Both the position numbers and the translations under genes were made by a program. A DNA stretch of 63,106 nucleotides, counting the filler, from Aduncisulcus paluster (Eukaryota): the NCBI GenBank assembly GCA_024181965.1. It is 12 parts of 12 records of this genome, joined end to end, with 100 filler letters (N's around TTAATTAATTAA, not from the genome) between each part and the next. Parts side by side here need not be neighbours in the genome. Positions count along the whole stretch, not along the records: positions 14,849 to 17,933 come from BQXS01011448.1; 11 more parts are not named here. The stretch is one strand, 5' to 3'. How positions within the stretch are numbered: position 1 is the stretch's first letter; each line of letters opens with the position of its first letter. Under the pieces are notes generated by a model. The model was not told where the DNA came from. It saw only the letters and a program-made list of their open reading frames with translations, and did no database searches. This document shows positions 1,307-60,353 of the stretch, piece by piece.

Positions 1307-1664
1307 TGTATCAAAAATAGATCACGACAATTAATTCCAAAGAGTGGTTTTCGGAATCAATTTGATTTCAAGATTAATACGGGAATCAAACAACTATTTG
1401 TCTATAAAATTGTGACATTCTCTTGGTATTCAAGAAAAATATCCCTTTAAGATGTTTTATTTTTCTGTAGATCGACAGGAAAAACATAACTCAAAATCTA
1501 CTACAATAATTCTATATATCAATGCATATTTTGAAAAAAATTAAGTATATAATAAAATCAATATCAATATAAGTTCATGATCTTAACTACACAATCGACC
1601 TCACAAAATTTTGTGGTTTTGAAGTAGAACAACAACATTTATTAGGTTCCTTCACGTAATTAAT

Positions 1665-3565
1665 ATGTTTCCACAAGATGATAGAAGAATAGAATATAAA
1701 AGACGTCAGAGGGTTCTTGCTGAGCAAGAGAGGGAGAAAACCATGCACCTGTCGTTAGAACAAAAAGTTACAAGACAAATGCAAAAAAAGCGTGAAAGAG
1801 AAGAAATGGAATCAACAATTCGTGCTGCTGCTGAAGCCCGTGATAAACGTCATGCAAATGAAATGAAAAGAAAGCGTATTGTGAAAGATTCTGATGAAAT
1901 TCGTGAATTAGAACGTGCTTTGCAAATAGCTTATGCATCATATGAACAGAAAGGTCAAATTAATACCCGTCATGAGGAGCGGATTAAAGAAAGAGAAGCC
2001 TATGTCGAAGAGGGGAAAATTATGCATCAAAAAGTTGCTGAAGAGGAGGCTGCCATCCGCGAAAGAGAATACAATGAGCGCATTGCAATGCTTGGGCATG
2101 GTTCTATTCTCCGTGGACAGATTGATCAGCGGGAGAAAGATTCTGTTGAGTCTGCCGCGAATCAATTGGCCCATGACAAAGCCATGGTCAATGCTATTAT
2201 CGCACAAATTGATGCCGAGGAAGCTGAGAAAGCCAAACATATTGACGAGGTTAAGAAAGCCACGATTGCTCACATTAAACATTATTTGGAACAAAAGGCA
2301 ATTGTTGCTCACGATCAAAAACTCAGAGACTCTGAAGAAGAAGAAAGGAACGAACGTTATCGTTTGGCACAGGAAGAACGTGAGAGGCAACGTGCTGAAG
2401 CCCGTAAGATTGTGATCCAATCCAATGAAGCCCTCGGTGAGCGTCTTGCTGAAGCCTTACTTAAAAGACAACGTGATATCGAAACTCTTGAGAAACTCCG
2501 TCTTGATCTTGCCGCTGCTCTCCAAGAAGAGAAAGAGTTGCAGAAAGTGCGTGAACAGGAATATGAAAGACTCCGTGTTCGTGATGAACTCATTGAGGCT
2601 GCTCGGCAATCTAAACGCGTGCGTGAGGAACGTGAACGTGCTATTCGAGCCGAGGAAGAGGCTTACAAAGAAGCCATGCTCGAACGTCATGCCAAAGAGT
2701 TGGAGAAAGAGAGGTTGTCTGAACGTAAAAAGAAGCTCGCATTCCATGCTTATGGCCGTGAATTATCTGCAGCAATTGCTCAACGACGTGAGGAACGTAA
2801 GGCCGAACATGCCTCCATGCTTGAAGAAGAGCGGGCTCTCTTATCGACTGGAGATGAACGTAAGAAAATCATTGAAGAAGAGAGGAAGAGACTTATCTTG
2901 ATCTTGCCGCTGCTCTCCAAGAAGAGAAAGAGTTGCAGAAAGTGCGTGAACAGGAATATGAAAGACTCCGTGTTCGTGATGAACTCATTGAGGCTGCTCG
3001 GCAATCTAAACGCGTGCGTGAGGAACGTGAACGTGCTATTCGAGCCGAGGAAGAGGCTTACAAAGAAGCCATGCTCGAACGTCATGCCAAAGAGTTGGAG
3101 AAAGAGAGGTTGTCTGAACGTAAAAAGAAGCTCGCATTCCATGCTTATGGCCGTGAATTATCTGCAGCAATTGCTCAACGACGTGAGGAACGTAAGGCCG
3201 AACATGCCTCCATGCTTGAAGAAGAGCGGGCTCTCTTATCGACTGGAGATGAACGTAAGAAAATCATTGAAGAAGAGAGGAAGAGACTTATTAAGGAACA
3301 TGCTGCCCGTTTGATTGGATTTTTACCGCCTGGCATCCTGCAATCTAAAGAGGATCTTGAACTTTTGCCCCTCGAGGTGCGAGCTGAGGTTAAAAGACAA
3401 AGCGATGTAAGGGAATTGATTCTTCTCGGGTATGATAAGGATACCGCAGAAAAGATGGTTGCAGAGGGATCTGGAGCCAAAGATGCAGAGCGAGCAAGTA
3501 AGGTCAGAGTCAGAACCGAATCTGGATTGAAAATCAAGTCAAGGACTTCTCATGGATTTTGGTAA
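1665..3565 (+). CDS. MNS1: Meiosis-specific nuclear structural protein 1 (TPH-domain axonemal protein), interrupted by a 395-bp tandem duplication
   Basis: Long E/R/K coiled coil ending in IIEEERKRLIKEHAARLIGFLPPGILQSKEDLELL, matching the MNS1 C-terminal signature. Removing one copy of the duplication joins ORFs 1665.. and ..3565. Confidence 0.85.
2501..3290 (+). repeat. Exact 395-bp tandem duplication inside MNS1 (2501-2895 / 2896-3290)
   Basis: Both copies start TCTTGATCTTGCCGCTGC and appear identical. The period is not a multiple of 3, so it causes a frameshift. Probable misassembly. Confidence 0.85.
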
Positions 3566-5567: not shown

Positions 5568-5667
5568 NNNNNNNNNNNNNNNNNNNNNNNNNNNNNNNNN
5601 NNNNNNNNNNNTTAATTAATTAANNNNNNNNNNNNNNNNNNNNNNNNNNNNNNNNNNNNNNNNNNNN
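5568..5667. other. Artificial contig linker (N44-TTAATTAATTAA-N44); also at 8649, 11622, 14749, 17934, 21102, 39430, 44706, 47500, 57356 and 60252
   Basis: Identical 100-nt N/all-frame-stop spacer occurs 11 times, and ORFs are cut abruptly at these linkers. Confidence 0.98.
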
Positions 5668-8648: not shown

Positions 8649-8748
8649 NNNNNNNNNNNNNNNNNNNNNNNNNNNNNNNNNNNNNNNNNNNNTTAATTAA
8701 TTAANNNNNNNNNNNNNNNNNNNNNNNNNNNNNNNNNNNNNNNNNNNN

Positions 8749-11621: not shown

Positions 11622-11721
11622 NNNNNNNNNNNNNNNNNNNNNNNNNNNNNNNNNNNNNNNNNNNNTTAATTAATTAANNNNNNNNNNNNNNNNNNNNNNN
11701 NNNNNNNNNNNNNNNNNNNNN

Positions 11722-14748: not shown

Positions 14749-14848
14749 NNNNNNNNNNNNNNNNNNNNNNNNNNNNNNNNNNNNNNNNNNNNTTAATTAA
14801 TTAANNNNNNNNNNNNNNNNNNNNNNNNNNNNNNNNNNNNNNNNNNNN

Positions 14849-17800
14849 AGAAGAAGAAGACGAAGAAGAAGAAGAAGAAGAGGAGGAGTTATAATCACGA
14901 TAACTGAACAGGGCACACTCGACCTGATACTCATCACTCCACACTTCACGACACACAACATTGTCCGAGGGTGTCATGGAAGACAGAGCATCGGAACAGT
15001 GTGCACAATACGATGAATCTTGAGCAATCAAAGAATCACTGCTACCCACATTCACGGAGAGAGCTGGCGAAAGAGGGAACAGTGCAGCATACACAGTGTC
15101 GGACACATTGCACAGCTTGTTCTCACGCACGTCAAGCGAAGACAGACCAGAGATCGGGAACAAGAGCGAGATGTCCGTGAGACCATTCGAACGGATGGAC
15201 AGGGTGGACAATGCAGGGAACATGCTGAGAGAACGCAAGGAAGTGTCACATAATCCAACAGAATCAAGGGTTAATGTTGTCAGAGAGGGCAGGGACGATA
15301 ATGTTGTCAGGGAGGAAGATAGTGTTGTGGATAAGGGGTTGCTGCTGAGGTAGAGTTCTGTTAATGCATTCATGGAGGAGAGGGCAGAAATGTCTGAGAT
15401 GTTGATAGTGTCAAGATAGAGATTTGTCATTTTTGTCAATCCTGCAAGTGGGGAAATATCAGAAATGCCGATGTTATATCCAAGGTTGAGATTGGATAAT
15501 GATGTCAGAGAGCTCAAGGAAGAGATATCAGAGATATTGTTGGATTGAAGATACAAATTTGCTAATTTCGACATCCCTGAGAGGAATGAAATATCTGAGA
15601 GAGTGTTTGAATTTAAACCCAAAGTAAGCAGCTCAACTTTCTCAGAAAGAACAGAAATGTCTGAAATATTGTTTGTACCAAGGTACAAAATCGACAGCTT
15701 TGACATTCCAGATAGAGCAGAGATATCTGAGATGTTATTGTTATAGAGATACAACTTTGATAATTGGAGCATATTTGAGAGAGATGAAATCGATGATATT
15801 TGGTTATGTCCAAGATGAAGATATGTGAGATTGGTGATGTTGACAAGAGGTGAAACATCTGAGATACTGTTTGAATAAAGATATAGAGTCGTTAAGTTTA
15901 TCATTCCTGATAGAGCAGAGATATCCGAGATGTTATTGTAATAGAGATACAGAGATACTAAATCATCCATGTTTGACAAAGAATCAATGGAAGTAATCTG
16001 ATTAGATCCAAGTTCCAAGGTTGTCAGATTCACCAAATTTTCCAATGGACTCACATCAGATATTTGATTGTTGTACAAATGCAAATACGTTAGATTCACC
16101 ATTCCGGATAGAGCAGAGATTGAGGATATATTATTGATGCCAAGGTGTAAAAATGTCAATTCCACCAAATTTTCTAATGAACTCACATCAGATATTTGAT
16201 TGTTGTACAAATGCAAATAGGTTAGATTCACCATTCCGGATAAATCGGAAATGTCAGATATCTGATTTGAATAAAGGTATAGAATATTCATATCATTCAT
16301 TCCAGATAGAGCAGATATATTTGAAATGTTGTTTGCATTAAGAGCCAAAGTATTGATCTCAGACATCTCAGAAAGATCAGAAATATCCGAAATATTGTTA
16401 TTGCCTAGATATAGAATTGACATCTTTAACATTCCAGAGAGAGCAGAGATATCTGAGATATTGTTTCCTTGGAGCTCTAATCGCACTAGTTCTCCCATTC
16501 CAGATAGAGCAGAGATATCTGATATATTGTTATCTCGAAGGTATAGAATATTCATATCATTCATTCCAGAGAGGGCAGAGATATCCGAGATGTTATTTTC
16601 ATAGAGATACAGATATACTAAATCATCCATATTTGACAAAGAATCAATGGAAGTAATCTGATTAGATCCAAGTTCCAAGGTTGTCAGATTCACCAAACTT
16701 TCCAATGAACTCACACCAGATATTTGATTGTTGTACAAATGCAAATACGTTAGATTCACCATTCCGGATAGAGCAGAGATTGAGGATATATTATTGATGC
16801 CAAGGTGTAAAAATGTCAATTCCACCAAATTTTCTAATGGGCTCACATCAGATATTTGATTGTTGTACAGATGCAAATATGTTAGATTCACCATTCCAGA
16901 TAGAGTAGAGATATCAGAGATAGCGTTTGATTGTAATCTAAGGTCAGTGAGATTGGTGATGTTGACAAGAGGTGAAACATCTGAGATACTGTTTGAATAA
17001 AGATATAGAGTCGTTAAGTTTATCATTCCTGATAGAGCAGAGATATCCGAGATGTTATTGTAATAGAGATACAGAGATACTAAATCATCCATGTTTGACA
17101 AAGAATCAATGGAAGTAATCTGATTAGATCCAAGTTCCAAGGTTGTCAGATTCACCAAATTTTCCAATGGACTCACATCAGATATTTGATTGTTGTACAG
17201 ATACAAATAGGTTAGATTCACCATTCCAGATAAATCCGAAATGTCAGATATCTGATTTGAATAAAGGTATAGAATATTCATATCATTCATTCCAGATAGA
17301 GCAGAGATTGAGGATATATTATTGATGCCAAGGTGTAAAAATGTCAATTCCACCAAACTTTCCAATGGACTCACATCAGATATTTGATTGTTGTACAAAT
17401 GCAAATACGTTAGATTCACCATTCCGGATAGAGCAGAGATATCTGAGATAATATTGTCTCGCAAGGTCAACTCAACAAGCTGCTCCTCAACACCACTCAA
17501 AGAACCAAGAACACTATGAGAGTCTGTCAATCCAGTGTTTCTCAGATCAAGCTTTGTTAACATTGTGAATGCGGATAAAGACACATCCTCAGATAATACA
17601 ATGTTCTGCAGATACAATGTGGATAAGGATGACGTTGGAAGATACCCAATCTCTGTCGAGTCAATCTCAAGGTCAGATGTGGATGTGCCATCGATGGTGA
17701 GTGATGCAAGGTCCGTAGCATAAGACAATCCTTCGAAGGTGTCAACAGAGGACGCACTGAGGGAAGTCAACGACAGCATGTCAATATTGGTTATGACTGG

Positions 17801-17933
17801 ACAATTAGCAGGAAGCCCAATAGAACTAACGAGAGCAGAACACACAGCAGCTCGAAGGTTTGCATCGGGGATGGATATTGAAAATTCACACACAACCTCA
17901 TCCCATTTCCCAATACAATCAGAATGCACAGAA
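14849..17933 (-). CDS. Internalin-like leucine-rich-repeat protein (more than 30 x 22-aa LRRs); both ends truncated
   Basis: IPDANLRAAVCSAL...ITNIDMLSLTSL...EGLSYATDL cap, then LxxLxLxxNxISDISxLSxM repeats, then a Cys-rich cap (NKLC...C..C...NVVCREVW...VEC). Confidence 0.9.
15360..17479 (-). repeat. Array of ~32 66-bp LRR-coding units with recurring near-identical cassettes
   Basis: For example the unit encoding LTTLELGSNQITSIDSLSNMDD occurs 3 times and LTYL(H/Y)LYNNQIS(D/G)VSxLExLV 6 times, with near-identical DNA. Confidence 0.9.
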
Positions 17934-18033
17934 NNNNNNNNNNNNNNNNNNNNNNNNNNNNNNNNNNNNNNNNNNNNTTAATTAATTAANNNNNNNNNNN
18001 NNNNNNNNNNNNNNNNNNNNNNNNNNNNNNNNN

Positions 18034-21201: not shown

Positions 21202-21928
21202 AACAGCAGCAACAATCTCTCATTTTATGCCATCTTTCAGAAGGAGCATTTCCAAATAAATCGAGACATTTCGCATTAAATCCATTCAAAAACTCTCCGC
21301 TGCGTTTGTGGTCACTCACATTCATGGAAAAACCTTTACATTTTTGAGGAGGAGGTGATTTCTTGGGTGATATTGAAGGTAGATATTTCTTATGCAACTT
21401 CTTCCTTTGTCCCTTTTTGGAGATATGATTTGTTTTTGAGAAGAGAGAGGAAGAAGAGGTGTTGGGGACAATTCTAATAATAGATTGGGGCTTCACGGGA
21501 GATTCTTGAGAAGATCCAAGGGAATGTAACCCAAGAGAAGCTCTCTCAAGTTGTTTCTCACATAAATGATCAACGGACTCACGCAGACGCCTTCGATATG
21601 ATTCTGTAAGAATTGGAGTCGGCGTCGGAGCCGATGCACCCAAAACTGGGATTTTATCGGGATATCTTGCTTTCGAACTTCGGGACAATCGATATTCTTT
21701 CCGTTTAGCCGGATTTCTATCATTATGAATCTGAAGTTTGGTGGAATAAGACATATGATGTCTCATTGGTGGAGTTGCAGGGAGGAATCCAATGGGAACT
21801 TGCATATAGCATAATAATCGACATAAAGGTATCCTAGTAGCCTTCGGTTGCACAATAGCTTGCGATTTATGCGGTAAAAGTGTCTGATTCTCAGGAATTG
21901 GGAGGGTATGCCCCATTATTTGTCCCAT
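21202..21928 (-). CDS. Basic, Ser/Pro-rich hypothetical protein N-terminus (3'-truncated)
   Basis: Open frame of about 240 aa running into the linker; no recognised domain. Confidence 0.5.
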
Positions 21929-21950
21929 TTTGAAAATGGGACAAATAATG
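21914..21950. repeat. Perfect 18-bp inverted repeat with a 1-nt spacer
   Basis: CATTATTTGTCCCATTTT-G-AAAATGGGACAAATAATG. Confidence 0.95.
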
Positions 21951-22604
21951 AATTACCACCGATGATATTATTTAGTGGTTAACATGTAACTTACATGAAA
22001 TATTCATGTTACAATTCCTGAGAAAGATCGACTTCAACCACAGGAACATCGACAATCGTTCAATTACTCTGACAAGCCCTTTCGCGGCTAAAATTCTCTC
22101 TTGTTCCTTGTCGGTCACGAATCTAATGGCAGACAAATAAATAATATCCTGTTTTCCATCTAAATAACTTCCAAAGTGCAAGCAAAACAGGATTTGGTGA
22201 TTATGGCTGGAATCTTTGTTGTATAGTTACTCAATATTTTGTGACAAGTTTGATTTAATAAATATTTTTTTGTCCTTATTGTTTTATTTGAATTATATTT
22301 TGTTTCTTCGAGTGTTCTTGAAATTCTGGTTTGTGTAGAGGAGCCAAAGGACATGACGATAAAAGGGTTTATTGTTTTTATTTTGATATGTATTATTCTT
22401 TTCAAGACTTTGGCTCATTTTATATTGCTAAACTCTGGTGATAGGAGAGAAATCATAAAGAATGGGGCTAAAATACTTGTTAAAATGAAAAATCGATGCA
22501 CATACATTACATTTTTATATATGAGCATTTCATTATTTATCAAAAATAAGTCTCATTCTTTTAGAACTGGATTTATTGCATTTTTTTTCCCTTATTTCTT
22601 TAGG

Positions 22605-23543
22605 ATGAGTTTGAAGAGAGAAGGTAGATTGATATCTCCTTCCGAAGATATTTCTATTTCAGAATTTTGCGAACGGATTGCTAATTTGTGTTCCGTTTGT
22701 CTTACTGCAGCCAAACAAACTATCGAAGAGTTGCAACTTCGCAAGGCCGGATCGTTATCGACTCTTAAAAACCTTCATATTTTCGAGGTTGATTTGGAAA
22801 AACAATTGCATATTCTCATCCATGATGATTTTGAAATTATTGAACCTGTTCATTCCGATACTGTTGAGATTGAACGTGTTCGGAAAATAGATAAACGCTG
22901 GGCCGTCTCTTATCTTGCTACGTGTGATAAAAATAAGAGGCAAATCCCTCCCAAAGTCAAAGAGTTTGTCCTTCGCCTTTTTGTTCGTTTTTCGAATGGG
23001 TTTATTCGTCGCAACGCCCAAGAGGCTCTTCAAGCTTTAGAGAGTATTTTTTGTGTTGGCAATGATCTTATTTCCTCCCTTCCCAACAAACACCTTGAGA
23101 TTCCAATCAATACATTGGGATTGCTTCACACCTCTTCCTCTCTGTCTTTTATGCATATTTCCTCACAAAAAAGAAGCAAAATGAAATCAATGACTCTTCC
23201 AAGGGGTAATATTGCCGATTATACAGTTCTCAAGAAAAAGAAGGGCATTATGGATGGGGGATACGAAGATGACGTCTCTGACCAATCCGTGATGCCTTTC
23301 ACTTCATTTTTATCCATGGAAACCGGACTTCGTGGTCCATTATTGAATTTTGAAAAGACAAAACATCTTGTTCTTGTAAAAATAGTAAGAATGTTGTTTG
23401 GCTTTGATTATCGCATTTCTACCCTTGAAACTGTTATTGCTAGAGCAGAATTGGTATTGGCAATGTTATTGAGAAAAGTTGGGAGCAATATTAAGAAATT
23501 GGATACCATTTCTGAATATCCTATGCTAAGATGTGATTTATGA
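22605..23543 (+). CDS. Hypothetical protein (~312 aa)
   Basis: Probable start MSLKREGRL follows an AT-rich leader, and the composition is coding-like. Confidence 0.6.
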   Translation: MSLKREGRLISPSEDISISEFCERIANLCSVCLTAAKQTIEELQLRKAGSLSTLKNLHIFEVDLEKQLHILIHDDFEIIEPVHSDTVEIERVRKIDKRWAVSYLATCDKNKRQIPPKVKEFVLRLFVRFSNGFIRRNAQEALQALESIFCVGNDLISSLPNKHLEIPINTLGLLHTSSSLSFMHISSQKRSKMKSMTLPRGNIADYTVLKKKKGIMDGGYEDDVSDQSVMPFTSFLSMETGLRGPLLNFEKTKHLVLVKIVRMLFGFDYRISTLETVIARAELVLAMLLRKVGSNIKKLDTISEYPMLRCDL

Positions 23544-23803
23544 TATTTTCTTTTATTATAAAATCAAAGAATAGGTAAGAATAGTGTTAAAACCAACTTG
23601 ATAATTGTCCATTTATAAGTATAGAAGAGGCGAATTTGTAAGCTGTGTATTACTCTGATTTTTTCAAGATGATATATAAAAATTCAATAAATAATAACCA
23701 ACTAATATGTTTTGTTGCTTAAAATGTTGTTCAATATGTATTCTAAGCTTTGCAGGCAAATTTTCCCATTTTGCAACATATTAAGGGATAATTTTAATTT
23801 TTT

Positions 23804-26800
23804 ATGTCAATAATTGGTGATCCTGCCTTACATTTTGCCATTTCAAAGGATAATAGATTATGGACAGCATCTCCAAGATCACCATTAATTCAAATATTTG
23901 ATACAACTGTATGTTATTCTTTTTCAGACTTTTTTTTGCCTAAATCTTATTGTAACTTTCCAAATGCATTAATTATAACCCAAATTTCTCAATATCTATC
24001 TAACTTTTTGATTTTAGACAGGAACATTCATTCAAAGCATTTCTCCTTTAAAATATCATTCATATGATGGCAGTGACCTTGAAATAACAGCACTTTCACA
24101 TATAAACTTAGCTAATAATGTTCTAATGCTTGTTTGTTTCAGCTCTGGTGATGTTCTTGCCATTGATGGGGATTCTTTCCAGCTTCAATGGGAGAAAACC
24201 ATCGAAGATATATTTCCATCATCTAGTTGTGCTCCAATTACCCATGCAATTCCTACAATTGTTGATAATAGACCCTGTTTCACCGTTGCTTGTGGAACTC
24301 GCACGTTTTGCTCTATCCAAGCGAAAGATGGTGAAATTGTAAGTTCCATGACATTAGACTCGAATATTACAGCATTAAACTCCCTACTTCAGCGGAGCAA
24401 TGGTGATATCATAGATATATGCGATAATTATGAATGTTCTTCCACCAAACTCCACAGTCATAAATCTGGGACGAGTCCCCTTACAACAACCACTATTCAA
24501 TCTATTCATTCTCTCCTATTCGTTGGTTTTGCCAATGGTGAAGTATCTTGTTTTTTCCCAACTGAATCATTCACCCTCATGCGTTTACACTCTCCTATTG
24601 TTAGTATTGGACTCAGCAAAGATATTGTGAGTGCTGTGACGAGCTCTGACATTGCCGTTATCTCGATCAGGAGTGCATTCTCAGCCTCATCTCTTGCCAA
24701 CGCTCAATCCCCAACCTCATCTGCTGCTTCTCTACATTCTGGCTCTCCATCAACCTATGTTGCTGATAGAGATGACGATGATGGCTCACGATACTCCGAT
24801 TTGCATCCTCAGGTCGGATCTGATGGAGTCATGAAGAGGAGTCGCCGCAGAGACCATGTCAGTAGCATTTATAATATTTTCTCCCCTGGAATGACGATCG
24901 CAGATTCAGCTGCTAATCCATCCGAGCCTGCCAAGTGTTGTTACCATTCCATTCATGTTATTGGAAACATTGTATTTACATTGCTCACGAAAGACAGAAA
25001 GAGAACTTCAGAGCTTGTTGTGTTTGTTCCTTTTACTCATGAAACCAAAGCAACAACAACGACTGCTCCCACCTCCTCTTCTTCCTCTTCCTCTTCCTCG
25101 TCTTCCTCGTCTTCTGCTTCCTCGTCTTCTGCTTCAGCTGATGATAGTGGTGTTCCAGCGTCTCCTCAATTCTTGTTATCAATCCCACGTGATTCTTGGT
25201 CTGTATGCTTCCCAAAGAACCCTATTGCTGTGTCTATTGGGATTGTACGGTTATCCAAGCCATTGGGAGATACACGGGGAATGCTAATGTTCGATTCAGG
25301 CAGCGGTAAAAGGATCTTCGGTGGTATGGAACTCAAATCGGAAGATAGAGCTTCAAAAACAAAAGGGACTGGGCATGGATCATTAACATCAGGGACTACC
25401 ACTGGCACGATTTCATATTCTTCTTCAACATCTTCCGGCATTCATAACTGTCTTATCCCCGTTCTCATTGTTAGTGGAGATAATGGAACGTGTTACACTG
25501 CTTCCGTGCATGATCTTCTGTGCCACTCTGATATCTCCCTGAATAAGGGACAGAAATCTATTTTTGGAATGGCTTCTTCCCACAGCGAGGGAGCTCCTGG
25601 CGAAAGGGTTTCAGGCCATAAAGGTGGATCTCATCGTGGGGATCATCACGGTGATGTTGGAGGTAGTTCTGGTGTCTCGTCAGCAGGTAAAAACTCGAAA
25701 AACAAACAAAATATCTTCTTCTTCTTCTTCTTCTTCTTCATCATCTTCTTCTTTTTCTCTTATAAAAGCTGGGTCATCCCAACATCTGGCATCTTTAGCA
25801 TCTCTACGATCGTCTAACATGGCATGTAAACTTATTCCTTTTAGTTTCTCATCTAATCCAAAAATAGATTCCGATTCGATAGGTATTTCCGGTGGTAATA
25901 ATTCGAAGAGTGAAGCCACTCAACTTTTTTCCCATGCTCATGCTCAATCTCATTCTCCAACTCTCTCGACATCCTCATCTTTTTCTGAGGGTCCCTCTGC
26001 TTTGATACGCCTCCCTCCTACGTTTGCTGTGATTCTGCGCACTGAATCGGAGCGCTTGGGTTCGATCCTCCCCTCGTCCGTTTCTTTTTCGTCGAATGGA
26101 CTTGTATATGGTGTTAGTAACACTGGATGGTGTGTTGGATGGAACATCGACGGAGTGCAAGAGATGTTAGATGACCGAGAAAGGGAAGAATACGAGTTTC
26201 TTGCACGGCGGGAAGAGGAAGAAAGGGAAAAGAAACGGAAACGAATGGAAAAGAAAAACCTTCGTGATGGCCAAAAGGCTTCCCATGCCCACTCTCTCTC
26301 TTTTTCCTTGATGGATGGGAGAGACGATGATCTTTCTGATTCCATTTCAAGTTCAGATGATCGAGAATCCATTGTTGATGATAAACAGGGGGACGGAGAG
26401 TGCATTGAATCAGTTCTGAACACAGACATTCCTCCTTCTTCCTCCGTTCTTGTTCCATTTGAACTAGGTGAGACCTATGATTTGTCATGTTCTGTGACAC
26501 TCAGACCTCGAAGGATCTCAACTCACCAGGCTGGAATGGCTCCAAGGTATATTGGATTTGAAGGAGACGATGATTTCAGTGATGATGGTGCTGGCGACAT
26601 GTCCAATGGACTGATGAATGAATCGCTATGGACAGCTTCATATTGCAACTCAAAGGTGTCTGTGTTCCTTAACAAAAAGAAACACAAGACGATTGATATT
26701 GGTGCTAGTGATAGTAACACTTCCCTTTCATCTTCCTCTATCTCCTCTTCCTCTTCTTCTTCAGCCGGAGGTTTCAGTGGCAAAATTAGTGGTGTTCAAC

Positions 26801-29800
26801 AGTTACTCACAGCCACGTATTTACATCACACGTATGTTATCGTTGTTCCAGTTATGAGTCACTCAGTGTACGTATTCGATGCCGATTCTATGGTTCAACA
26901 TGCTATAATTGAGCATCCCTCACTAAAAGGAGACAGGGAGAGAGAGAGGAAAGAGAAAGAGAAAGAGAAAGAAAAAGAGAAGAAGAATGGAACAGATGTT
27001 GATTCTACTGTTAATCCATCACTCACTGGAGCTGGTAATTCAACTGGAGCTGGAGCTGACTCAGGGTCTTCATTGTCCACCACAGCTCCTTCCAGTCATA
27101 TTCCGTATGTTTCCTACTGTGCCGTCACTGGTAATAACACTGTCCGTTGTATCTTGTGGATCATTGATACATCTGGTCGTTTGCGAGGCTACAGTGTCGG
27201 CAGTGGCGGTGAGAGAAGAGAATGTGTCCGTGAGAAGAGAAACATTGCGAAGGAACATGCTTCCCATACTGGAACTGACAAATCACATCAGGATGGAGGC
27301 ATGGAGATACTTGATATCGAGAGAGGCTATGGGAGTGCCTATTCATTGCATTCCAAGAAGAATCCTGATCATTTGCCTATTCCTTCTTTCTCAAATAAGG
27401 GGACCAGTTCAGTATCCCCCCCCGGATCTCCTCGATCTGCCTCAAGGTCATCATCTCCTTCCAACACTTCCTCGTTCTCGTCTTCCCCAAGATACATGGA
27501 CCAACAATCTCGTTCTATATATGGTAACTCTGGGAAACAATCTCGTTCTGGCACACGTACGACAGCAATGATCCCTGCAGAGTCTACTCTATTCTCACAC
27601 ACTGGTATTAGTTCTCGTCTCCTCTCTTCGCCCCCAACAGCCTCATTATCGCTCTCCTCTTTCTTCCCCTGTGGAGTATTTGACACTGGTATGAAGAATG
27701 TGTGCTCTGCCATCGGAGTCACTGTCACTGACGAGGGTGCTGATGACCTTTCTAGAGAGATATATGGATCGGATGCACCTGGGAGTCATGGAAAGGATGA
27801 TAAACGTCAACATACATCGTCGGAGGAAGACATAATCGTACTATGTAATAGCTCAGGTGTGCGAGGGTTCAGATTCACTATTAATGTAAAGAATACTCAG
27901 AGATCTGAAATCATTGGACATGTTATCCTGGATGACAGTGGGAAGAAAGACAGGTCGAAAGATGGTCGAATTGGAACAGATGATCAAGATGTTATTGAAC
28001 TCCATTCTGGTGCTCTTTCTGATGGTTCAGCTTCCACAGTTGCCAAGAACAGTGGCTTGTCATCTAAAAAAAGTGGTAAATCTTCATCAAGTGATAATGG
28101 TAGTGGGTATTCACGTGCATATTTATTCTCGTATGTTTACTACAAAGCCCAGGTCAAGGTCAGTCGTGTATTTAGAGTCGGTTTCGTCTCTCCTCAATTC
28201 GAAAGTGACACTGTCAGTATGTGTGTTCTTGGAGGTTTTACTGACCGTCAACGTATGGAATTGGAGAAGAAATACCGTGAAATTGATGAATCTGAGAGAG
28301 CAGCGAGGGACAATGAAGAAGAGGAGGAAGAAGAGAAGAGACTACGAAGAGAGAAGGCCCAAGAAGCCAGAAACGATGAGATGAGAAGATGGGAACAGTA
28401 TGAGATATCCAAGGAAGAGAAACGTCGTCTAAAAGAGCAAGAAAGTTATGAGCTCATGCACGGCAATGATAAACTTCAGCATCAGTTCAGGAATCAAGTA
28501 GATGATCGAAGAAAACAGTGGGAAGTATGGTATAAGGATGAGAAGAAAAGAATAGCTAATCTTCTCATCCGGAAGTTCAATGAACGTGTCCAAGGTGCTG
28601 AAAATATGTCAATAGCTCACTGTGGTACACTGCCTGTATTTGTAGTTGTTCGAACTCGCACCGGTGATTCCTTCTTGTTGCATACTTCCATGCCACCCAT
28701 CCGTTTATCCTTACCCTTCTCTTCATCTCCCCTGTACTCTCACCCCTTTATTCCTTTCTCCCTCGCCGTGTGTGATGGGCATGACGTCAAGATATGTGAA
28801 TGTGTCGCTGGGAAGGAAGTGCTTGATCTTTCCTTTGAGATGAACAGAGCTATCCAGCGTTCGACTGCTTCATGCGGTGTCAATGGACTCCTTTCTTCCT
28901 CTCATAATATGCATATCCTCTCTCCAGTCGGATCTACAAGGGAAATGACTCAAGGACAGTCTGGGAGCAGTCTTGTGCTTGGTGTGGCCCAAAGAAGCGA
29001 TATCATGGGATCTGGAGGAATTATGGCAGATATGAAGGAGAGGGATGGAAAGATAGGAAGTGACATGATGATATCACATGATCATCATGGGAATGTCTAT
29101 AATGGGGATCCATCAACATCCACATCTCTGGTATCGTTGTCAAGTCGTAACAACCCATTTTCTAACAATATTACATCATCGATGGTTTTGTCATTGAATT
29201 CACGAGCACTTGCTCCTCTCTTCTCTTTCTTTTTCTCATCTCATTTCCCTCCTTCCAGATTAGATGGCTCCTCAAATACCTCAAAAGGAAGAGTCAGTGA
29301 TATCACAACTCTGAGAGATGCATTGCGTGAGGAAAAAGAACGCCGAAAAGAAATTGAAGAAGAACTGAGGAAATTGAAGGAAGAACTCGTGAAAAAAGGT
29401 CAGAACAAAGGAGGATATGGTCCAGGTGTCGATGATGGTGGAGTTTTAGACCAACGTGGAGAAGATATTGCACTTGGATCTACATCAACTTCTGCAGGCA
29501 TTGCTTATCCTCCAACAAAAAGTAGCTCCTCTTCTTCCTCTTCTTCCTCTTCTTCCTCTTCTTCATCTTCTTTTTCTCATCTCATTTCCCTCCTTCCAGA
29601 TTAGATGGCTCCTCAAATACCTCAAAAGGAAGAGTCAGTGATATCACAACTCTGAGAGATGCATTGCGTGAGGAAAAAGAACGCCGAAAAGAAATTGAAG
29701 AAGAACTGAGGAAATTGAAGGAAGAACTCGTGAAAAAAGGTCAGAACAAAGGAGGATATGGTCCAGGTGTCGATGATGGTGGAGTTTTAGACCAACGTGG

Positions 29801-32800
29801 AGAAGATATTGCACTTGGATCTACATCAACTTCTGCAGGCATTGCTTATCCTCCAACAAAAAGTAGCTCCTCTTCTTCCTCTTCTTCCTCTTCTTCCTCT
29901 TCTTCATCTTCTTCCTCTTCTTTGCCTCCTCTGCATCCTCCTCCATTGGAGGAAAAAGAACGCCGAAAAGAAATTGAAGAAGAAGTGAAAAAAGGTCAGA
30001 ACAAAGGAGGATATGGTCCAGGTGTCGATGATGGTGGAGTTTTAGACCAACGTGGAGAAGATATTGCACTTGGATGCTCCTCTCTTCCTTTCTCATCTCA
30101 TTTCCCTCCTTCCAGATTAGATGGCTCCTCAAATACCTCAAAAGGAAGAGTCAGTGATATCACAACTCTGAGAGATGCATTGCGTGAGGAAAAAGAACGC
30201 CGAAAAGAAATTGAAGAAGAACTGAGGAAATTGAAGGAAGAACTCGTGAAAAAAGGTCAGAACAAAGGAGGATATGGTCCAGGTGTCGATGATGGTGGAG
30301 TTTTAGACCAACGTGGAGAAGATATTGCACTTGGATCTACATCAACTTCTGCAGGCATTGCTTATCCTCCAACAAAAAGTAGCTCCTCTCTTCCTCTTTT
30401 TCTCATCTCATTTCCCTCCTTCCAGATTAGATGGCTCCTCAAATACCTCAAAAGGAAGAGTCAGTGATATCACAACTCTGAGAGATGCATTGCGTGAGGA
30501 AAAAGAACGCCGAAAAGAAATTGAAGAAGAACTGAGGAAATTGAAGGAAGAACTCGTGAAAAAAGGTCAGAACAAAGGAGGATATGGTCCAGGTGTCGAT
30601 GATGGTGGAGTTTTAGACCAACGTGGAGAAGATATTGCACTTGGATCTACATCAACTTCTGCAGGCATTGCTTATCCTCCAACAAAAAGTAGCTCCACAA
30701 TATTACATCATCGATGGTTTTGTCATTGAATTCACGAGCACTTGCTCCTCTCTTCTCTTTCTTTTTCTCATCTCATTTCCCTCCTTCCAGATTAGATGGC
30801 TCCTCAAATACCTCAAAAGGAAGAGTCAGTGATATCACAACTCTGAGAGATGCATTGCGTGAGGAAAAAGAACGCCGAAAAGAAATTGAAGAAGAACTGA
30901 GGAAATTGAAGGAAGAACTCGTGAAAAAAGGTCAGAACAAAGGAGGATATGGTCCAGGTGTCGATGATGGTGGAGTTTTAGACCAACGTGGAGAAGATAT
31001 TGCACTTGGATCTACATCAACTTCTGCAGGCATTGCTTATCCTCCAACAAAAAGTAGCTCCTCTTCTTCCTCTTCTTCCTCTTCTTCCTCTTCTTCATCT
31101 TCTTCCTCTTCTTTGCCTCCTCTGCATCCTCCTCCATTGTTATCTATCTGTGCACACACTCAGACTGACATGGACGATCGTGATGAAGAGTTAATCAACG
31201 TTCAGAGCCAAGTGAGTACGTTGTCATCACTCGTCGACACTCTTCGTGAGAAACTTAGTGAAGCCAACGCACAATGTATCAAAGAAAGACGGATTAAGCA
31301 GCTCGCCGTTGAAGAAGCTCGTTCCCTCGCTGTTGGACGTCTTGAACAGCTTGAAACCGTAATACCCGAGCTTGAAAACGATAATAAGTTGCTTAGAGAC
31401 CGTGTGAAAGTCAGTGAGGAAATATCGGTGTCATTAAAGACCGAGTCGCTGGAACTCAATGCCAAATTGTGTGGAATTGAAAAGGATAACACTGAGCTCA
31501 GAGGTAAAAATGACTTTCTTCAGCGTGATATCAAACGTAAGGAGGCTGAAATTGAGCTTTTGAAACGTGATTTGCTTGAAATCACAATGCAGCTTGAAGC
31601 GCAAGGCGAAGAGATGGTTCAACGTCAAGAAAAAGAAGAGAAGCTCCGTAAAGATTGGGAACGTAAAGAGAAGAAGAGGGAAGAAGAGTTTCGCACGAGA
31701 AGAAATAGTTCTGGAAGTGGTGCCTTTGGTACTCGTAGTCATAACCATCAAGATACTGGCTTGGTTGATCATGAACCCAGTGAGTTATCTGTGCTTCATG
31801 ATGAGATGGATCCCTTCTCAACACAACACACTCCTCGAACAGGCATATTATCAGAGAAGGATGCCATTGGTGCCGTTGCCAGTGCTCTTTCAGATCCATC
31901 TTCAGCTGCATTTGCCCACCTTGACTTTGATGAAATCAACAAGATGTTAATTTCACTCCAAACAGATGACGATCAACGTATTTTGTTGCTCTCTACCAAC
32001 ATTGTGCAGAATTTAATCAGTGCTCTGTGTATTGCTGGCGTTGACATCAAAGAGGATGATGTTCTTGGTGTGGATGAATCTGTTGCTCTTCTCGAAACTG
32101 CTGAAAGCATGTCTAGTCTTTTGGTTACAGAATTCCAGAACTTTACAGTCAAACAACTCACAAAGATGCACATTGATGGTGCTCGCAAATCATACCATGG
32201 CGGCCATCAGAAGGAATCAAAGGAAGTCGGAATGACAAGCCCATCGGAAGGAAATAGAACATCAAGCAGTAGCATGGAAGGAAGAGGACAAGGAGCAGAA
32301 TCTGAGAAGTTCTTCCCATCTTCTTTGTCTTCATTCGCTCAGTCGCTTCTTCTTGCTCCATCAGCCACTCACAGCACCGGTGTCCAGTGTGCTATTATTA
32401 GACTTAGTGAGAAAGATATCTTGGAGGAGAAAGACACTCTCCAAACAAGGCTTCAAGAGGTTCAAGATGCCTTATTTAACACTGAAGAACAGCTCAAGAG
32501 CAAATCTTCTTCTTTGCAATCGAACACTGAACTCCTGACAAGTTGCCGTGCCCACAACGAGTCTTTGCATAGTCAGATTGACCTCTTGCGAAGTTCCGAT
32601 GAGGACAAAACCAACACGATTGCCAATCTAAAGAAACGACTAGAGAAAAACGAGAGAGAGAAGGAAGGGAGAGAAGGAGTCGTTAGAGCTATGGAACAGA
32701 GATATCNNNNNNNNNNNNNNNNNNNNTTTGCAATCGAACACTGAACTCCTGACAAGTTGCCGTGCCCACAACGAGTCTTTGCATAGTCAGATTGACCTCT

Positions 32801-35077
32801 TGCGAAGTTCCGATGAGGACAAAACCAACACGATTGCCAATCTAAAGAAACGACTAGAGAAAAACGAGAGAGAGAAGGAAGGGAGAGAAGGAGTCGTTAG
32901 AGCTATGGAACAGAGAGTCACGGTCACTGAAGAGCTACTAACAACGTTCAGAGAACGACTTGCAATGATTGGATCTGAAAAAGAGCATTGGAGAGCTCTG
33001 TCTAAACTCCTTCAGAGAGAAAAAGAAGAGGAGGAAGAGAGGAAGAGGCGTAGAGAAATAGAAGAGGAGGAAGAGAGGAGGGAAGAGAGAGAGAGAGAGA
33101 AAGAAGAAGAAGACAAGAGAAAGGCTTTATTACTTGAGAAGTTGGAGAGAGAACAAGAGAAGAAAATGAAAGATATGAAAGAAATTGAAGCTGTCACAGT
33201 TGATACGAATATAAGTTCTGATCCCACCACCAATTCATCCAAGGCCTTGAAGCCACCACCGAACGAACCATCTTCTACCTCTTCCTCTTCTACTTCTTCT
33301 TCCTCTCCTCCTCAGAGTTCTGATGGAATTGAGTCCAAACAAACAGCTATTGCACATGAAGAAAAGAGGGACGAAAAGAGGGACAAAAAGAAAGAAGAAA
33401 AGAACTCGAAAGAGGAGGAGGAAGAGGAAGAGGAGGAAGAAGATGAACACGCGTCTGCTGAGAAAGAAGAGGAGGAGAGAAAGAGAATTGAAGAAGCCAA
33501 GAAGAAAGAAGAAGAAAAACAAAGGAAATTGGCCAAGCAAAGAAGAAGAAGAAAGACTGAAAAAGCTTCAGGAAGAAGAAGAAAAGAGGAAAAAAGAAGA
33601 GGAAGAGGAAAAGAGAAGAAAAGAAGACGAAGAGAAGAGGAGAAGAGAAGAGGAGGAAGAGCGCAAGAAAGCTGAGAAAGCTGAATCATCCATCATCAGT
33701 GGAAACAAGGTCGTCAATAACAACAATGTAAGTGACTCGACTAGGAGGGTCAGTACATCTTCTGATGATATTTCTCATCGTTCTATTTATAGATCTGTTG
33801 AGAAAGACTATGCTGATGAAAGTCCTGCTGATTCTATGATAACTGAGACCGAGACTGAGTTAAAACCCTTGACGGGAGCTCTAAATCTTGATGATCTTCT
33901 TTCATCTTCTCACCTCTCAACTCTTCGACCCATCTACCCCGAAGATGCTGACGATGGTGCTTCTCTGCCAGATCATTCCTCCCAACCGGCCAATTTGATG
34001 AGTCGAGAGGTTGCACACTCTCAACCGAACGTTTCCAGCCGGTCAAACCGGACATTCCAATCACATAAAGTATCACACCCCACGTTATCTGATGGGTATT
34101 CTGGGGATATTATGAGTGGTCGGAGAACCACAGGAGATCGAGCAGTGACGACCACCTTGAGATTTGAGAATAGAAATGCTTCTTCAAGGCTTTCTACTGT
34201 CGATGAAACTGATCATACAAGACCTCACTCAAGTGATGGAGCCACCCATTCAGCTCTTTCAACTCCAATTATCTCTCGTCAAGCTTCCACAACATCTTCC
34301 TCCTCTTCCTCCTCTTCCTCTTCTTCTTCCTCTTCTTCAAGTGCGAACCCTTCGTCCGTTTCTTCTAGTCGACTTGGATCTTTCCTGCATTCGTATACCC
34401 ATGGGGAAATGTATGTTTCCAGAGATAGTCAAGTCCACCATAGTTCTGTGAAGCAAATGACAACAGAAGAGGCTGAAAGGGCAAGGAAAAGAAGAGAAGT
34501 AGAGGGGAAAATAAGAGGCCCATCTCTCGAATCGTTGTCTGCACACAAGTCACCTTACTCATTCTCACAAAGATATGCCTCTTCTTTCTCAAAATCTAAA
34601 AATAGCAGTTCATCTTCACATTTCTCTTATGCTAATTTGCAACGGGAAGCCTTATTGCGTGAGAATAGGCGTCGAGAAGAGGAAGAACGTCGTAAATATG
34701 CTGAAGAAATTGAACGCAAAGAGAGAGAAAGAGAAGAGAGAGAAAGAATTGCTAAAGAAGAAGAAACTCGTTTGAGGCTTCAACGTGAGAGATATGAAAG
34801 AGAAAAAGAGCAACAAAGCGAAAGACAAAGATCTTCAATTCACCATGGTTTGGATTCGACTAGGTCAGATCACATTCTCAAGAGAGCCGAAGAGAGAAGG
34901 AAATATTCGTATTCTTACATGTCACCGAGAAGCAAGCATTCAATGTCTCCATATTCTTCTAAATCATCAATCTTGCAAAGCACGCCTTCCCTTAGGGGAA
35001 AAGATGGCTCATTAAACGTCCGAGAAGTATTCTCTCGGAAATCAAATATGTCTATGGCTCATTTGCCTTTTAAATAG
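23804..35077 (+). CDS. Giant (~3,100 aa after repair) beta-propeller-like plus coiled-coil, Ser-rich protein; one intron (23909-24017); broken by microsatellite frameshifts, a duplicated block and an overlap gap
   Basis: Exon 1 (35 codons) splices in frame to ORF 24126. The chain 24126-25564-30714-32728-33323 is continuous if the shifts in the TCT/GAA tracts, the 1532-bp block 29165-30696 and the 214-bp overlap at the N20 gap are removed. WD-like strands (LFVGFANGEVSCF, GWCVGWNI, VYVFD) are N-terminal, and long heptad coils are C-terminal. Confidence 0.65.
23909..24017 (+). other. Spliceosomal intron, 109 nt
   Basis: GTATGT donor, CTAAC branch point at 24000-24004, TTTTAG acceptor; removal keeps the frame. 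Confidence 0.85.
29165..31110 (+). repeat. Five full plus partial copies of a ~340-bp coding unit joined at TC-rich tracts
   Basis: The unit TTCTCATCTCATTTCCCTCCTTCCAGATTAG...CCAACAAAAAGTAGCTCC recurs essentially identically. Probable misassembly. Confidence 0.8.
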
Positions 35078-35386
35078 GGATATTATAGAAAATAATAGTA
35101 GTATTTGTTTTATTATCACTTATTAATCTTAGTAAATTTGATCCCAACCGTTAATGTATCATTTTTTTCGAGTGAGACACAATTTGTGTCAGACACAAAC
35201 AATGTTTTTTTGAGCGTTTCTTGAATGTTTAAGGTTTTTTATCTGAATAATTCATATTATATTTCATTTGTAAACATTATGACATCATAGAAATCTATAT
35301 GTGAAGTTTTCTTGTTGAAGATTGTTCTTGTCACCATAAGTGAACCAAAGATAAACTATTTGAATCCACAAATACTTGATATTAAT

Positions 35387-36334: not shown

Positions 36335-36576
36335 TTTTCTATACTCGTTTTATATTGGGCGAGAAAGATTTATTGAAAACCCTTGTTGAATGGCCCAAGC
36401 GTTGCCAGGCAAGATCGAACGGGCAAGTGCTTGTGATGAATCCAATGCTTAAATTCCTTCGATTCTTTGAATAAATATTTATATTTGTAATTATTTTGCG
36501 TTATTTGAGATCTATGATATTATCACGCTTGGTTTTGGCCTTGGACTGAGAGAAAAGAGAACAGGGCTTGGACCTG

Positions 36577-36642
36577 CGAGGGGATTAATATTTTTAAAAC
36601 GAGGGGCTTAAATTTTTCAAGCGAGGGGCTTAATATTTTTCT
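36577..36642 (+). repeat. Three direct repeats of ~22 bp (CGAGGGGMTTAA(T)ATTTTT)
   Basis: Copies start at 36577, 36600 and 36622. Confidence 0.8.
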
Positions 36643-37120
36643 ATCCTTTGGGGTCAATGGGAAGGACTAGAGGCCCTACTAGGTGAATTAGTAATTCACG
36701 TAATTAGGCGTTTTCTCGAGAATAAACAATGATTTCAGTGACAAAGCTGTACAAAAATGAAGAACAATAAAAACAAATGGTATATAATTTTTTTGAAAAT
36801 AACTCTTTGAAAGATAGGTTTTTGAAAGCAGAAATATTCTTTGAACTATTTGATTGCCTTTCCTCGCTTACTAAGCCTTAGTAAGGGTATCATACCCTTA
36901 ATAGTATTAAACAAACAATTCTATGTCAGCTCATCAGTCTTGTCAGGTGAGATTTGTTGAAGTGATCATGTCATTAAGATGATGTGATATTCACTTTTTC
37001 TAATATTAACATCCTTTTGTTATAAATATTAACAATACAACTTGATTTTTATTAAATTTTGATTGTTGGTATTAATATAGATCTATAACTTGAATATTTT
37101 TGATTAAATAATCTCCATAC

Positions 37121-60251: not shown

Positions 60252-60353
60252 NNNNNNNNNNNNNNNNNNNNNNNNNNNNNNNNNNNNNNNNNNNNTTAAT
60301 TAATTAANNNNNNNNNNNNNNNNNNNNNNNNNNNNNNNNNNNNNNNNNNNNAC

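What the first reader, a model, noticed from the sequence alone, without database searches (positions are those of the whole stretch)
15360..17479. LRR receptor gene assembled as a shuffled mosaic of 66-bp cassettes
Seen: the 22-aa repeats fall into discrete cassette types reused in non-periodic order, roughly A B C D B E F G H B C B E F' D' I J K D B C B E F G L M. B occurs 6 times, C and E 3 times each, and the blocks B-E-F-G and B-C-B-E each recur. The DNA copies are near-identical, with scattered single-base changes and hybrid units such as F' and D'. Cassette types differ mainly in the xLxxLxLxxN beta-strand positions, while the ISDISALSGM framework is shared. Established: that face is the LRR ligand-binding surface, and lamprey VLRs and some algal ROCO/LRR genes diversify by LRR-unit shuffling. 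Inference: homologous exchange in the constant framework may generate a combinatorial repertoire of prey-, pathogen- or self-recognition receptors in this protist.
Basis: partly seen in the sequence, partly recalled or inferred. Interest (0 to 1): 0.72.

Follow-up and report, generated by a model that had tools for sequence, protein, structure and literature searches.

The report
Block-duplicated LRR gene family member
This is a leucine-rich-repeat protein gene from a free-living relative of Giardia whose 22-residue repeats were recently copied in blocks and recur in other orders in sister genes; such families commonly vary this way, and the exact repeat order here rests on one short contig.

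Summary
Window 14849-17929 (minus strand) is one open frame of 1027 codons that fills a 3085-bp contig. B occurs 6 times, C and E 3 times each. Units of one class differ at 0-9 of 66 bases. Units of different classes differ at 10-41 (median 32).

The pattern reduces to four or more recent block copies of 2-5 units (96-99% identical, one 253-bp exact repeat) laid over old, diverged units.

Four related proteins were found. Two are annotated as Aduncisulcus paluster. All share a near-identical N-terminal cap. Three reuse the same cassettes in other orders (A B C/E F G H N O P D'; A B C G L M B; A B E F' G). The fourth has 7 unrelated units between the same caps.

The best reading is a germline multigene family of secreted SDS22/internalin-type LRR proteins, remodelled by in-register unequal recombination and gene conversion.

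Nothing supports or tests a somatic, VLR-like process. "Receptor" is unproven. The long-range order is insecure: public-run contigs shatter on this stretch, and neighbouring contigs carry perfect 300-400-bp tandem duplications that look like assembly artefacts.

The parts
14849..17933 (.). One 3085-bp contig of the concatenated window, bounded by N44-TTAATTAATTAA-N44 spacers
14849..17929 (-). Open frame of 1027 codons with no stop, open at both contig ends: a fragment of a larger LRR protein gene
   Evidence: Pfam LRR_4 E 1.9e-135 and LRR_8 E 8.2e-69
17882..17929 (-). First 16 codons (..DCIGKWDEVVCEF..). By eye this looks like the end of an EGF-like Cys module. The sequence upstream of the cap differs between family members
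   Evidence: loose ends at 17872/17879 in both runs
17480..17881 (-). N-terminal cap region (SIPDANLRAAV... to ...GVEEQ). It is 151/154 and 149/154 identical (counted through cassette A) in two Aduncisulcus paluster proteins, and 119/131 identical in P0362
   Evidence: 35-39% identical to N-caps of long multi-module LRR proteins
15500..17479 (-). 30 in-register 66-bp / 22-residue LRR units in the order A B C D B E F G H B C B E F' D' I J K D B C B E F G L M N O P
15368..15499 (-). Two further LRR units with a one-residue register shift
14894..15367 (-). Degenerate terminal LRRs plus a Cys-containing C-terminal cap (..NKLCNVSD..YCAHC..VVCREVW..VECALFSY). It is 143/149 identical to the C-terminus of P0362
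14849..14893 (-). Poly-serine run, (AGA)n on the + strand, at the contig end
16947..17232 (-). Block copy S1, partner 15825-16110 (units 3.74-8.08 = 20.74-25.08): 286 bp with 4 mismatches, all in the first 33 bp
15825..16077 (-). Longest exact internal repeat, 253 bp, identical to 16947-17199
16575..16902 (-). Block copy S2, partner 15915-16242 (units 8.74-13.71 = 18.74-23.71): 328 bp with 12 mismatches
17153..17305 (-). Block copy S3, partner 16163-16315 (units 2.64-4.95 = 17.64-19.95): 153 bp with 6 mismatches
17288..17430 (-). Block copy S4, partner 16100-16242 (units 0.74-2.91 = 18.74-20.91): 143 bp with 5 mismatches. It also matches 16760-16922 (163 bp, 9 mismatches)

Best explanation
The contig is a fragment of one member of a multi-copy germline family of secreted or surface LRR proteins in a free-living fornicate flagellate (Aduncisulcus paluster or a close relative).

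Each member has a conserved N-terminal cap, a variable array of SDS22/internalin-type 22-residue LRRs, and a conserved Cys-containing C-terminal cap. The array has 7 units in one relative and 32 here.

The units are old: different classes are about 50% diverged at the DNA level. Blocks of 2-5 units have recently been copied, deleted and converted in register. Most events run between cassettes of the same class (B with B, or E-F-G with E-F-G). A few go through the short identical stretches of the ISDISxLSGM framework, and these make hybrid units and new junctions.

The outcome is a set of paralogues carrying the same cassettes in different numbers and orders, so their concave binding faces differ.

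Shown here: the cassettes, the block copies, the paralogues with other orders, and the conserved caps.

Inferred: the recombination mechanism, secretion (a signal-peptide-like start in two relatives, judged by eye), and a binding role such as adhesion to prey bacteria or surfaces.
For: - Unit classes and order.
- Block copies at 96.3-98.6% identity. Their ends fall at unit fractions .64-.74 and .71-.95, that is, in the framework tail.
- Mismatches in S1 are confined to its first 33 bp, followed by 253 identical bp. This is what a recent conversion or duplication tract would look like.
- 4 of 10 pairs of informative sites among the six B copies fail the four-gamete test.
- Copies within a class differ at 8 synonymous-only codons and 7 replacement codons. 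Three of the 7 are the register effect at codons 21-22. The copies therefore behave as constrained coding sequence.
- Four family members were found outside the window. P0241 and P0301 are named Aduncisulcus paluster.
- N-cap plus cassette A identity: 151/154 and 149/154. N-cap alone in P0362: 119/131.
- Cassette orders in the relatives: A B C/E F G H N O P* D'; A B C* G L M B; A B E F' G*. The junctions H-N, C-G, M-B and P-D' are absent from the focal gene.
- P0362 has the same caps (C-cap 143/149 identical) around 7 unrelated units.
- In public run X1, 1426 contigs lie on the 3085 bp at 95% identity or more. Of these, 552 are only 95-99% alike, so many near-copies exist in that sample.
- Exact runs between unlike classes are at most 27 nt. 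That is shorter than the 31-letter words that the run index uses (tool text), so the junction types themselves are unlikely to be word collisions.
- Fold class: best solved matches are internalin A (E 5e-88), a Roco LRR and SDS22/PPP1R7.
Against: - I saw no DNA for the four relatives, only protein.
- Their contigs are short where listed (1557 and 1808 bp). They may come from the same kind of short-read assembly, so their orders are no more secure than this one.
- No listed contig of either public run spans the stretch. The listed pieces are 67-119 letters in X1 and 102-314 in X2.
- At several places the runs' contigs read another letter than the window. In X1 this is 100% of the depth at 15493 and 16670, and 54215 of 55452 at 17237.
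- Other contigs of the window carry perfect two-copy tandem duplications of 310-395 bp. One breaks a reading frame and one straddles a gap, so this assembly does make repeat errors.
- The two other LRR contigs in the window share no cassette with this gene (0 of 2).
- Copy number could not be calibrated.
- Secretion and function are inferred only.
Confidence: 0.6

Rival explanations
1. The cassettes are real, but the particular order and copy number on this 3-kb contig is partly a short-read assembly product: a chimeric or collapsed path through several near-identical paralogues. This rival concerns the order only and can hold together with the family reading.
For: - The 253-bp exact internal repeat and the 286- and 328-bp near-exact blocks.
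- Public-run contigs shatter here and none spans the stretch. In X1, 618 of 1426 laid contigs fit two places.
- At some places the window's base is the minority or is unseen in the runs.
- Perfect 310-395-bp tandem duplications elsewhere in the window look like unmerged overlaps.
- The contig ends inside the gene on both sides.
- The one published draft genome of the closest named species was built from 150-nt paired reads of about 500-bp fragments into 25,863 contigs, N50 4.6 kb (PMC9933649, main text and table read).
Against: - Unlike classes share at most 27 exact nt, so false joins between unlike cassettes are unlikely. Errors would be limited to which same-class block follows which.
- The frame stays open across all 32 units.
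- The relatives differ from the window by point substitutions in the non-repeat cap (3 and 5 of 154). Separate copies therefore do exist.
Confidence: 0.3
2. This is a programmed or high-frequency diversification system. Cassettes would be exchanged somatically or mitotically between family members, VLR-like or antigenic-variation-like, so that cells of one culture carry different arrays.
For: - The architecture resembles a variable array between constant caps.
- Hybrid units and framework switch points occur.
- B copies are mosaic.
- There are very many near-identical variants in run X1.
Against: - No observation here separates variation within a clone from fixed paralogues.
- Relatives differ in cap substitutions and in what lies upstream (a signal-peptide-like start versus an EGF-like end), as separate loci would.
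- Synonymous differences have accumulated between copies.
- There is no flanking sequence to show donor arrays or an incomplete acceptor gene.
Confidence: 0.06
3. These are a few old tandem duplications private to this one gene, with no exchange with other genes.
For: TRF reports a 462-bp (7-unit) period over 16495-17450. The order can be written as three imperfect copies of D-B-C-B-E-F-G.
Against: - The copies are 96-100% identical while the classes are about 50% diverged, so the duplications are not old.
- The same cassettes occur in at least three other proteins in other orders.
Confidence: 0.04

Closest known systems
Tetrahymena LRR genes built of tandem 90-bp exons (PMC6564038; abstract and searched passages read)
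   Same: A protist LRR family in which the number and order of repeat units vary between members. The paper attributes this to unequal crossing over within and between genes.
   Different: In Tetrahymena each unit is a 90-bp exon flanked by phase-2 introns, and a LINE-like element is implicated. Here the units are 66 bp in one uninterrupted frame, so exchange must occur inside coding sequence. No retroelement was seen on the contig.
Lamprey and hagfish variable lymphocyte receptors (recalled, not from a call)
   Same: Constant N- and C-terminal caps around a variable number of LRR cassettes, with switch points in conserved repeat sequence.
   Different: VLRs are assembled somatically from flanking donor cassettes into an incomplete germline gene, and they use 24-residue LRRV units. 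Here the units are 22 residues. No somatic step, donor array or incomplete gene has been shown or could be tested.
SDS22-like / internalin-type LRR domains (Listeria internalin A and B, PPP1R7, Chlorobium Roco LRR)
   Same: 22-residue units with LxxLxLxxNxIxDIxxLxx. Best solved matches are InlA at E 5e-88, the Roco LRR at 1e-72 and PPP1R7 at 2e-29. The IPDxNLR-type N-cap is shared with long multi-module LRR proteins.
   Different: No Internalin_N domain, Ig-like inter-repeat domain or cell-wall anchor was found. The host is a eukaryote, and the flanks are Cys-rich and EGF-like modules with a poly-Ser run.
Plant LRR resistance-gene clusters, Cf- and Xa21-type (recalled)
   Same: Germline families in which unequal crossing over and gene conversion change LRR number and shuffle solvent-exposed residues.
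   Different: Plant LRRs are 23-24 residues and show dN/dS above 1 at x positions. Here recent copies show more synonymous than replacement change, and comparisons between classes are saturated.
BspA-like surface LRR proteins of Trichomonas and diplomonads (PMC11437800, searched passages read)
   Same: A large LRR surface-protein family in metamonads, proposed there to be on the cell surface.
   Different: BspA proteins carry the TpLRR type (Pfam LRR_5). LRR_5 is not among the hits at E 0.01 or below here.

Membership tests
SDS22-like (internalin-type) LRR class | Repeat unit of 22 residues | tested here: met
   30 consecutive units stay in register at 22 residues / 66 bp
SDS22-like (internalin-type) LRR class | Consensus LxxLxLxxNxIxDIxxLxx (the class definition is recalled) | tested here: met
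   L4, L6, N9 and L17 are invariant. I11 is present in 29/30 units, S12 in 27/30 and S15 in 27/30
SDS22-like (internalin-type) LRR class | Sequence similarity to solved members | tested here: met
   InlA E 5.1e-88; PPP1R7 (SDS22) E 2e-29
Listeria internalin family | Internalin N-terminal cap domain and Ig-like inter-repeat (LRR-adjacent) domain | tested here: not met
   The six Pfam hits at E 0.01 or below are all LRR models. There is no Internalin_N or LRR_adjacent hit
BspA-like / TpLRR proteins | Pfam LRR_5 repeats | tested here: not met
   LRR_5 is absent from the Pfam hits
Variable lymphocyte receptor system | 24-residue LRRV units between Cys-knot LRRNT and LRRCT (recalled) | tested here: not met
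   Units are 22 residues. The N-cap is of the IPDxNLR type shared with long multi-module LRR proteins
Variable lymphocyte receptor system | Incomplete germline gene with flanking donor cassettes, assembled somatically | not testable with these tools
   The contig is 3085 bp and ends inside the gene. No genome is held. Only contigs of the runs were available, not raw reads
Tetrahymena 90-bp-exon LRR genes | Each unit is a 90-bp exon separated by phase-2 introns | tested here: not met
   Uninterrupted 1027-codon frame with 66-bp units
Tetrahymena 90-bp-exon LRR genes | Unit number and order vary between family members | tested here: met
   32 units here against 7 in P0362 between the same caps. 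Three relatives show other orders
ROCO LRR proteins (Ectocarpus type, recalled) | ROC GTPase and COR domains next to the LRRs | tested here: inconclusive
   None on the contig, but the frame is open at both ends
LRR receptor (receptor-like protein or kinase) | Membrane span and cytoplasmic signalling domain | tested here: inconclusive
   No kinase or other domain on the contig. The gene is truncated at both ends. P0362 continues only 32 residues past the shared cap

The most novel reading that the evidence does not exclude
A free-living relative of Giardia varies a surface LRR protein by frequent mitotic exchange of 66-bp cassettes between family members. Cells of one culture would then carry different arrays between constant caps: a cassette-based variable-receptor or antigenic-variation-like system outside vertebrates and parasites. 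The very large number of near-identical variants in one sample (1426 contigs on 3 kb) and the mosaic B copies do not exclude this.
Probability: 0.06. Interest if true: 0.85.

Novelty: new member of a known kind. Interest (0 to 1): 0.42.

Why it matters
If the family reading holds, a free-living, bacteria-eating fornicate has a large family of modular LRR proteins whose binding faces are re-dealt by in-frame cassette exchange without introns. This adds a clean example of how LRR repertoires grow in protists. It also offers a candidate for prey or surface recognition in the lineage that later gave rise to Giardia, with its variant surface proteins.

I found no paper describing LRR families in this organism. 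A search for 'Aduncisulcus' returned 30 papers. A search for 'Aduncisulcus' with 'leucine-rich' returned 1 paper, which treats diplomonad BspA-like proteins.

The practical lesson is a caution: the repeat order in contigs like this one should not be interpreted until long reads exist.

Tried and rejected
- Whole genome: none is held for this window.
- Earlier notes of this scan: nothing by place or by sequence.
- Metagenome scans: a 27-nt B-cassette word had 0 matches. For the N-cap protein, 327 pattern matches included no relative by tblastn.
- Protein search at similar length: the best 120 of 5851 hits were all 29-50% identical, mostly unnamed; the few that carry names are bacterial. There was no close paralogue and no self-hit. 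Paralogues appeared only among shorter proteins and in the representative library.
- In-window paralogues: 0 of 2 other LRR contigs share a cassette. The only DNA hits were the (AGA)n run and one 26-nt match.
- Expression: no RNA holder is listed. X2 is only guessed to be RNA, so nothing is concluded.
- Joints have sides of only 21-23 letters. They show other cassettes next to framework-like sequence, not alternative orders of this contig. By eye, one set of letters between the sides translates to the FLSSMNDLSIL junction of P0362. I did not run this through a tool.
- dN/dS between classes: synonymous sites are saturated (pS 0.67-0.79), so the ratio of 0.73 at x positions means little.
- Cys-rich module of the neighbouring LRR contigs: no Pfam family at E 1 or below apart from a chance-level hit. 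The best Atlas score was 0.83, below the 0.9 lead level, and all structural TM scores were 0.35 or lower.
- Supplements of the three papers were not opened.
- Structure and complex prediction were not used, because the LRR fold is already clear.
Full report
WHAT THE WINDOW IS. The 63,106-base window is not one stretch of chromosome. It is 12 contigs of 2.7-18 kb joined by spacers of N44-TTAATTAATTAA-N44, with overall GC of 39.5%. The finding lies on a 3085-bp contig (14849-17933). The minus strand of that contig is a single open frame of 1027 codons that runs off both ends. Pfam scores it as LRR_4 (E 1.9e-135, 19 stretches) and LRR_8 (E 8.2e-69), and finds nothing but LRR models.

CHECK OF THE OBSERVATION.
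- At the DNA level the classes are discrete. The 24 within-class pairs differ at 0-9 of 66 bases. The 411 between-class pairs differ at 10-41, median 32.
- Residue variability peaks at positions 2, 3, 5, 7, 8 and 10, and at 16, 21 and 22. L4, L6, N9 and L17 never vary.
- Two refinements apply. First, codons 21-22 of each unit follow the identity of the next unit, so the true cassette starts two codons earlier. Second, the framework is conserved as protein (pN 0.18) but its synonymous sites are saturated between classes (pS 0.79). Unlike classes share a median of only 8 exact in-register bases. Only 9 of 153 pairs share 20 or more, and the maximum is 27.

ANATOMY OF THE MOSAIC. A self-comparison at every offset finds a small set of long near-identical segments.
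- Units 3.74-8.08 match 20.74-25.08: 286 bp with 4 mismatches, all in the first 33 bp.
- Units 8.74-13.71 match 18.74-23.71: 328 bp with 12 mismatches.
- Units 2.64-4.95 match 17.64-19.95: 153 bp with 6 mismatches.
- Units 0.74-2.91 match 18.74-20.91: 143 bp with 5 mismatches.
- The longest exact repeat is 253 bp (15825-16077 = 16947-17199).
- Every segment has units 18-24 (D B C B E F G) as one partner. The array therefore reads as that 7-unit block plus partial copies of it: B C; D B E F G with C-B lost between two B's; and B C B E F. These sit among single-copy units A, H, I, J, K and L-P.
- At least four events are needed, and they are recent (96-100% identity) compared with the roughly 50% divergence between classes.
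- Among the six B copies, 4 of 10 pairs of informative sites show all four combinations. This indicates conversion or recombination among them, or a chimeric assembly.
- Within classes there are 8 synonymous-only variable codons and 7 with a replacement. Three of the 7 are the register effect. Recent copies therefore look constrained, not driven to diversify.

RELATIVES.
- A DHHC-ankyrin protein on another contig of the window is 49% identical to a transcript of the Carpediemonas-like organism NY0171, and has no other close relative.
- At similar length, the LRR array finds only proteins of 29-50% identity, mostly unnamed; the few named hits are bacterial.
- Among shorter proteins the best hit, and one further hit, are annotated 'hypothetical protein, partial [Aduncisulcus paluster]'.
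- An exhaustive search with the N-cap adds two more close relatives. It then finds long multi-module LRR proteins at 35-39% identity that carry the same IPDxNLR-type cap.
- The two named proteins match the window at 151 of 154 and 149 of 154 residues, counted through the cap and cassette A. What lies upstream differs: a signal-peptide-like MLFFMVICSSICMVSA (judged by eye) in P0241 and P0361, and an EGF-like end in the window, P0301 and P0362.
- Their cassettes are the window's cassettes in other orders. P0241 reads A B C/E-hybrid F G H N O P* D'. P0301 reads A B C* G L M B. P0361 reads A B E F' G*. Several units are identical over all 22 residues.
- The junctions H-N, C-G, M-B and P-D' do not occur in the window's gene. 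In each, the beta-strand half of one class is followed by the framework tail of another, so the switch lies in ISDISxLSGM.
- P0362 has the same N-cap (119/131 identical) and C-cap (143/149 identical) around only 7 units, none of them a window class.
- The family is therefore: constant caps, a variable array, and shared cassettes. The two other LRR contigs in the window (57456-60251 and 60352-63106) belong to a different branch and share no cassette.

HOW FAR THE ORDER CAN BE TRUSTED.
- Two public runs of one sample hold the stretch. Both are served only as contigs.
- In X1, 1426 contigs lie on the 3085 bases at 95% identity or more. Of these, 874 are 99% or more alike and 552 are 95-99% alike. 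618 fit two places and none spans the stretch. The listed pieces are 67-119 letters in X1 and 102-314 in X2.
- This shows many near-copies in the sample, and that the region cannot be threaded with short words.
- At some places the runs' contigs carry another base than the window.
- Elsewhere in the window there are perfect two-copy tandem duplications of 310-395 bp. One is 395 bp, which is not a multiple of three, and it splits a TPH-domain frame. One straddles a 20-N gap. These are the mark of unmerged overlaps.
- The only draft genome I found in print for the closest named species was assembled from 150-nt paired reads of about 500-bp fragments into 25,863 contigs with N50 4.6 kb and GC 39.1% (PMC9933649, main text and table read). 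I do not claim the window is that assembly.
- Unlike classes share at most 27 exact bases, so the junction types are probably real. What cannot be vouched for is which same-class block follows which over 3 kb.

EXPLANATION. The best-supported reading (0.6) is a germline multigene family of secreted or surface SDS22/internalin-type LRR proteins. Their arrays are remodelled in register by unequal recombination and gene conversion, mainly between same-class cassettes and occasionally through framework microhomology.
- Rival, about 0.3 and compatible with the family reading: the order on this contig is partly an assembly product.
- Rival, about 0.06: somatic or high-rate switching.
- Rival, about 0.04 and already contradicted by the relatives: a few private old duplications.

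COMPARISON WITH KNOWN SYSTEMS.
- The repeat class is met: 22 residues, the consensus, and best solved matches of InlA at 5e-88, a Roco LRR and SDS22.
- Membership of the Listeria internalin family is not met, nor is membership of BspA/TpLRR proteins.
- Membership of the Tetrahymena 90-bp-exon genes is not met, because there are no introns.
- VLR membership is not met on unit length and is untestable on its defining somatic assembly.
- The family works most like the Tetrahymena and plant LRR families (the plant case is recalled), which vary by unequal crossing over.
- I found no description of this family in print. 'Aduncisulcus' returns 30 papers. With 'leucine-rich' it returns 1 paper, which is about diplomonad BspA-like proteins.

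VERDICT. This is a new member of a known kind, of moderate interest (0.42). Long reads from a clonal culture would settle both the order and the question of switching.

Noticed in passing
window 5568-5667, 8649-8748, 11622-11721, 14749-14848, 17934-18033 and six more: The window is 12 separate contigs joined by N44-TTAATTAATTAA-N44 spacers. Neighbouring 'genes' are therefore not neighbours in the genome.
   Followed up: yes
window 2501-3291; 29214-29913; 30089-30696; 30402-31061; 54909-55564: Two-copy tandem duplications of 310-395 bp at 93-100% identity. The 395-bp one shifts the frame of a TPH-domain ORF (1623-3311 continues as 2876-3562). The last straddles the 20-N gap at 55228-55247. They look like unmerged-overlap assembly artefacts.
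   Followed up: partly
window 57456-60251 (-) and 60352-63106 (+): Two further contig-filling LRR proteins carry a repeated Cys-rich module (..VCSETxPGSxxW..CSGGCEYGxECR..) at about 59616, 58353 and 62814. It has no Pfam family and no Atlas lead. The focal gene's C-cap ends in a related ..VVCREVW..VECALFSY segment.
   Followed up: partly
window 17480-17881 (-): The N-cap (SIPDANLRAAV..) is of the IPDxNLR type that also heads each module of long multi-module LRR proteins found at 35-39% identity (P0363, P0366). The LRR array's nearest non-family hits are mostly unnamed, and the few named ones are bacterial, at up to 50% identity. A bacterial origin of the module in this bacterivore is possible but untested.
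   Followed up: no
window 14849-17929 (-): The protein encoded by this contig did not appear as a self-hit in either protein search, although a protein from another contig of the window did (P0121). The gene may be unannotated in the source's gene set.
   Followed up: no
window 47602-49359 (+): A Cys-rich EGF/teneurin-like extracellular protein. By eye, it has a hydrophobic segment and a basic, Ser-rich tail.
   Followed up: no
window 21202-39429: An 18-kb contig with several long ORFs (up to 1353 codons) has no Pfam match at E 1e-5 or below.
   Followed up: no
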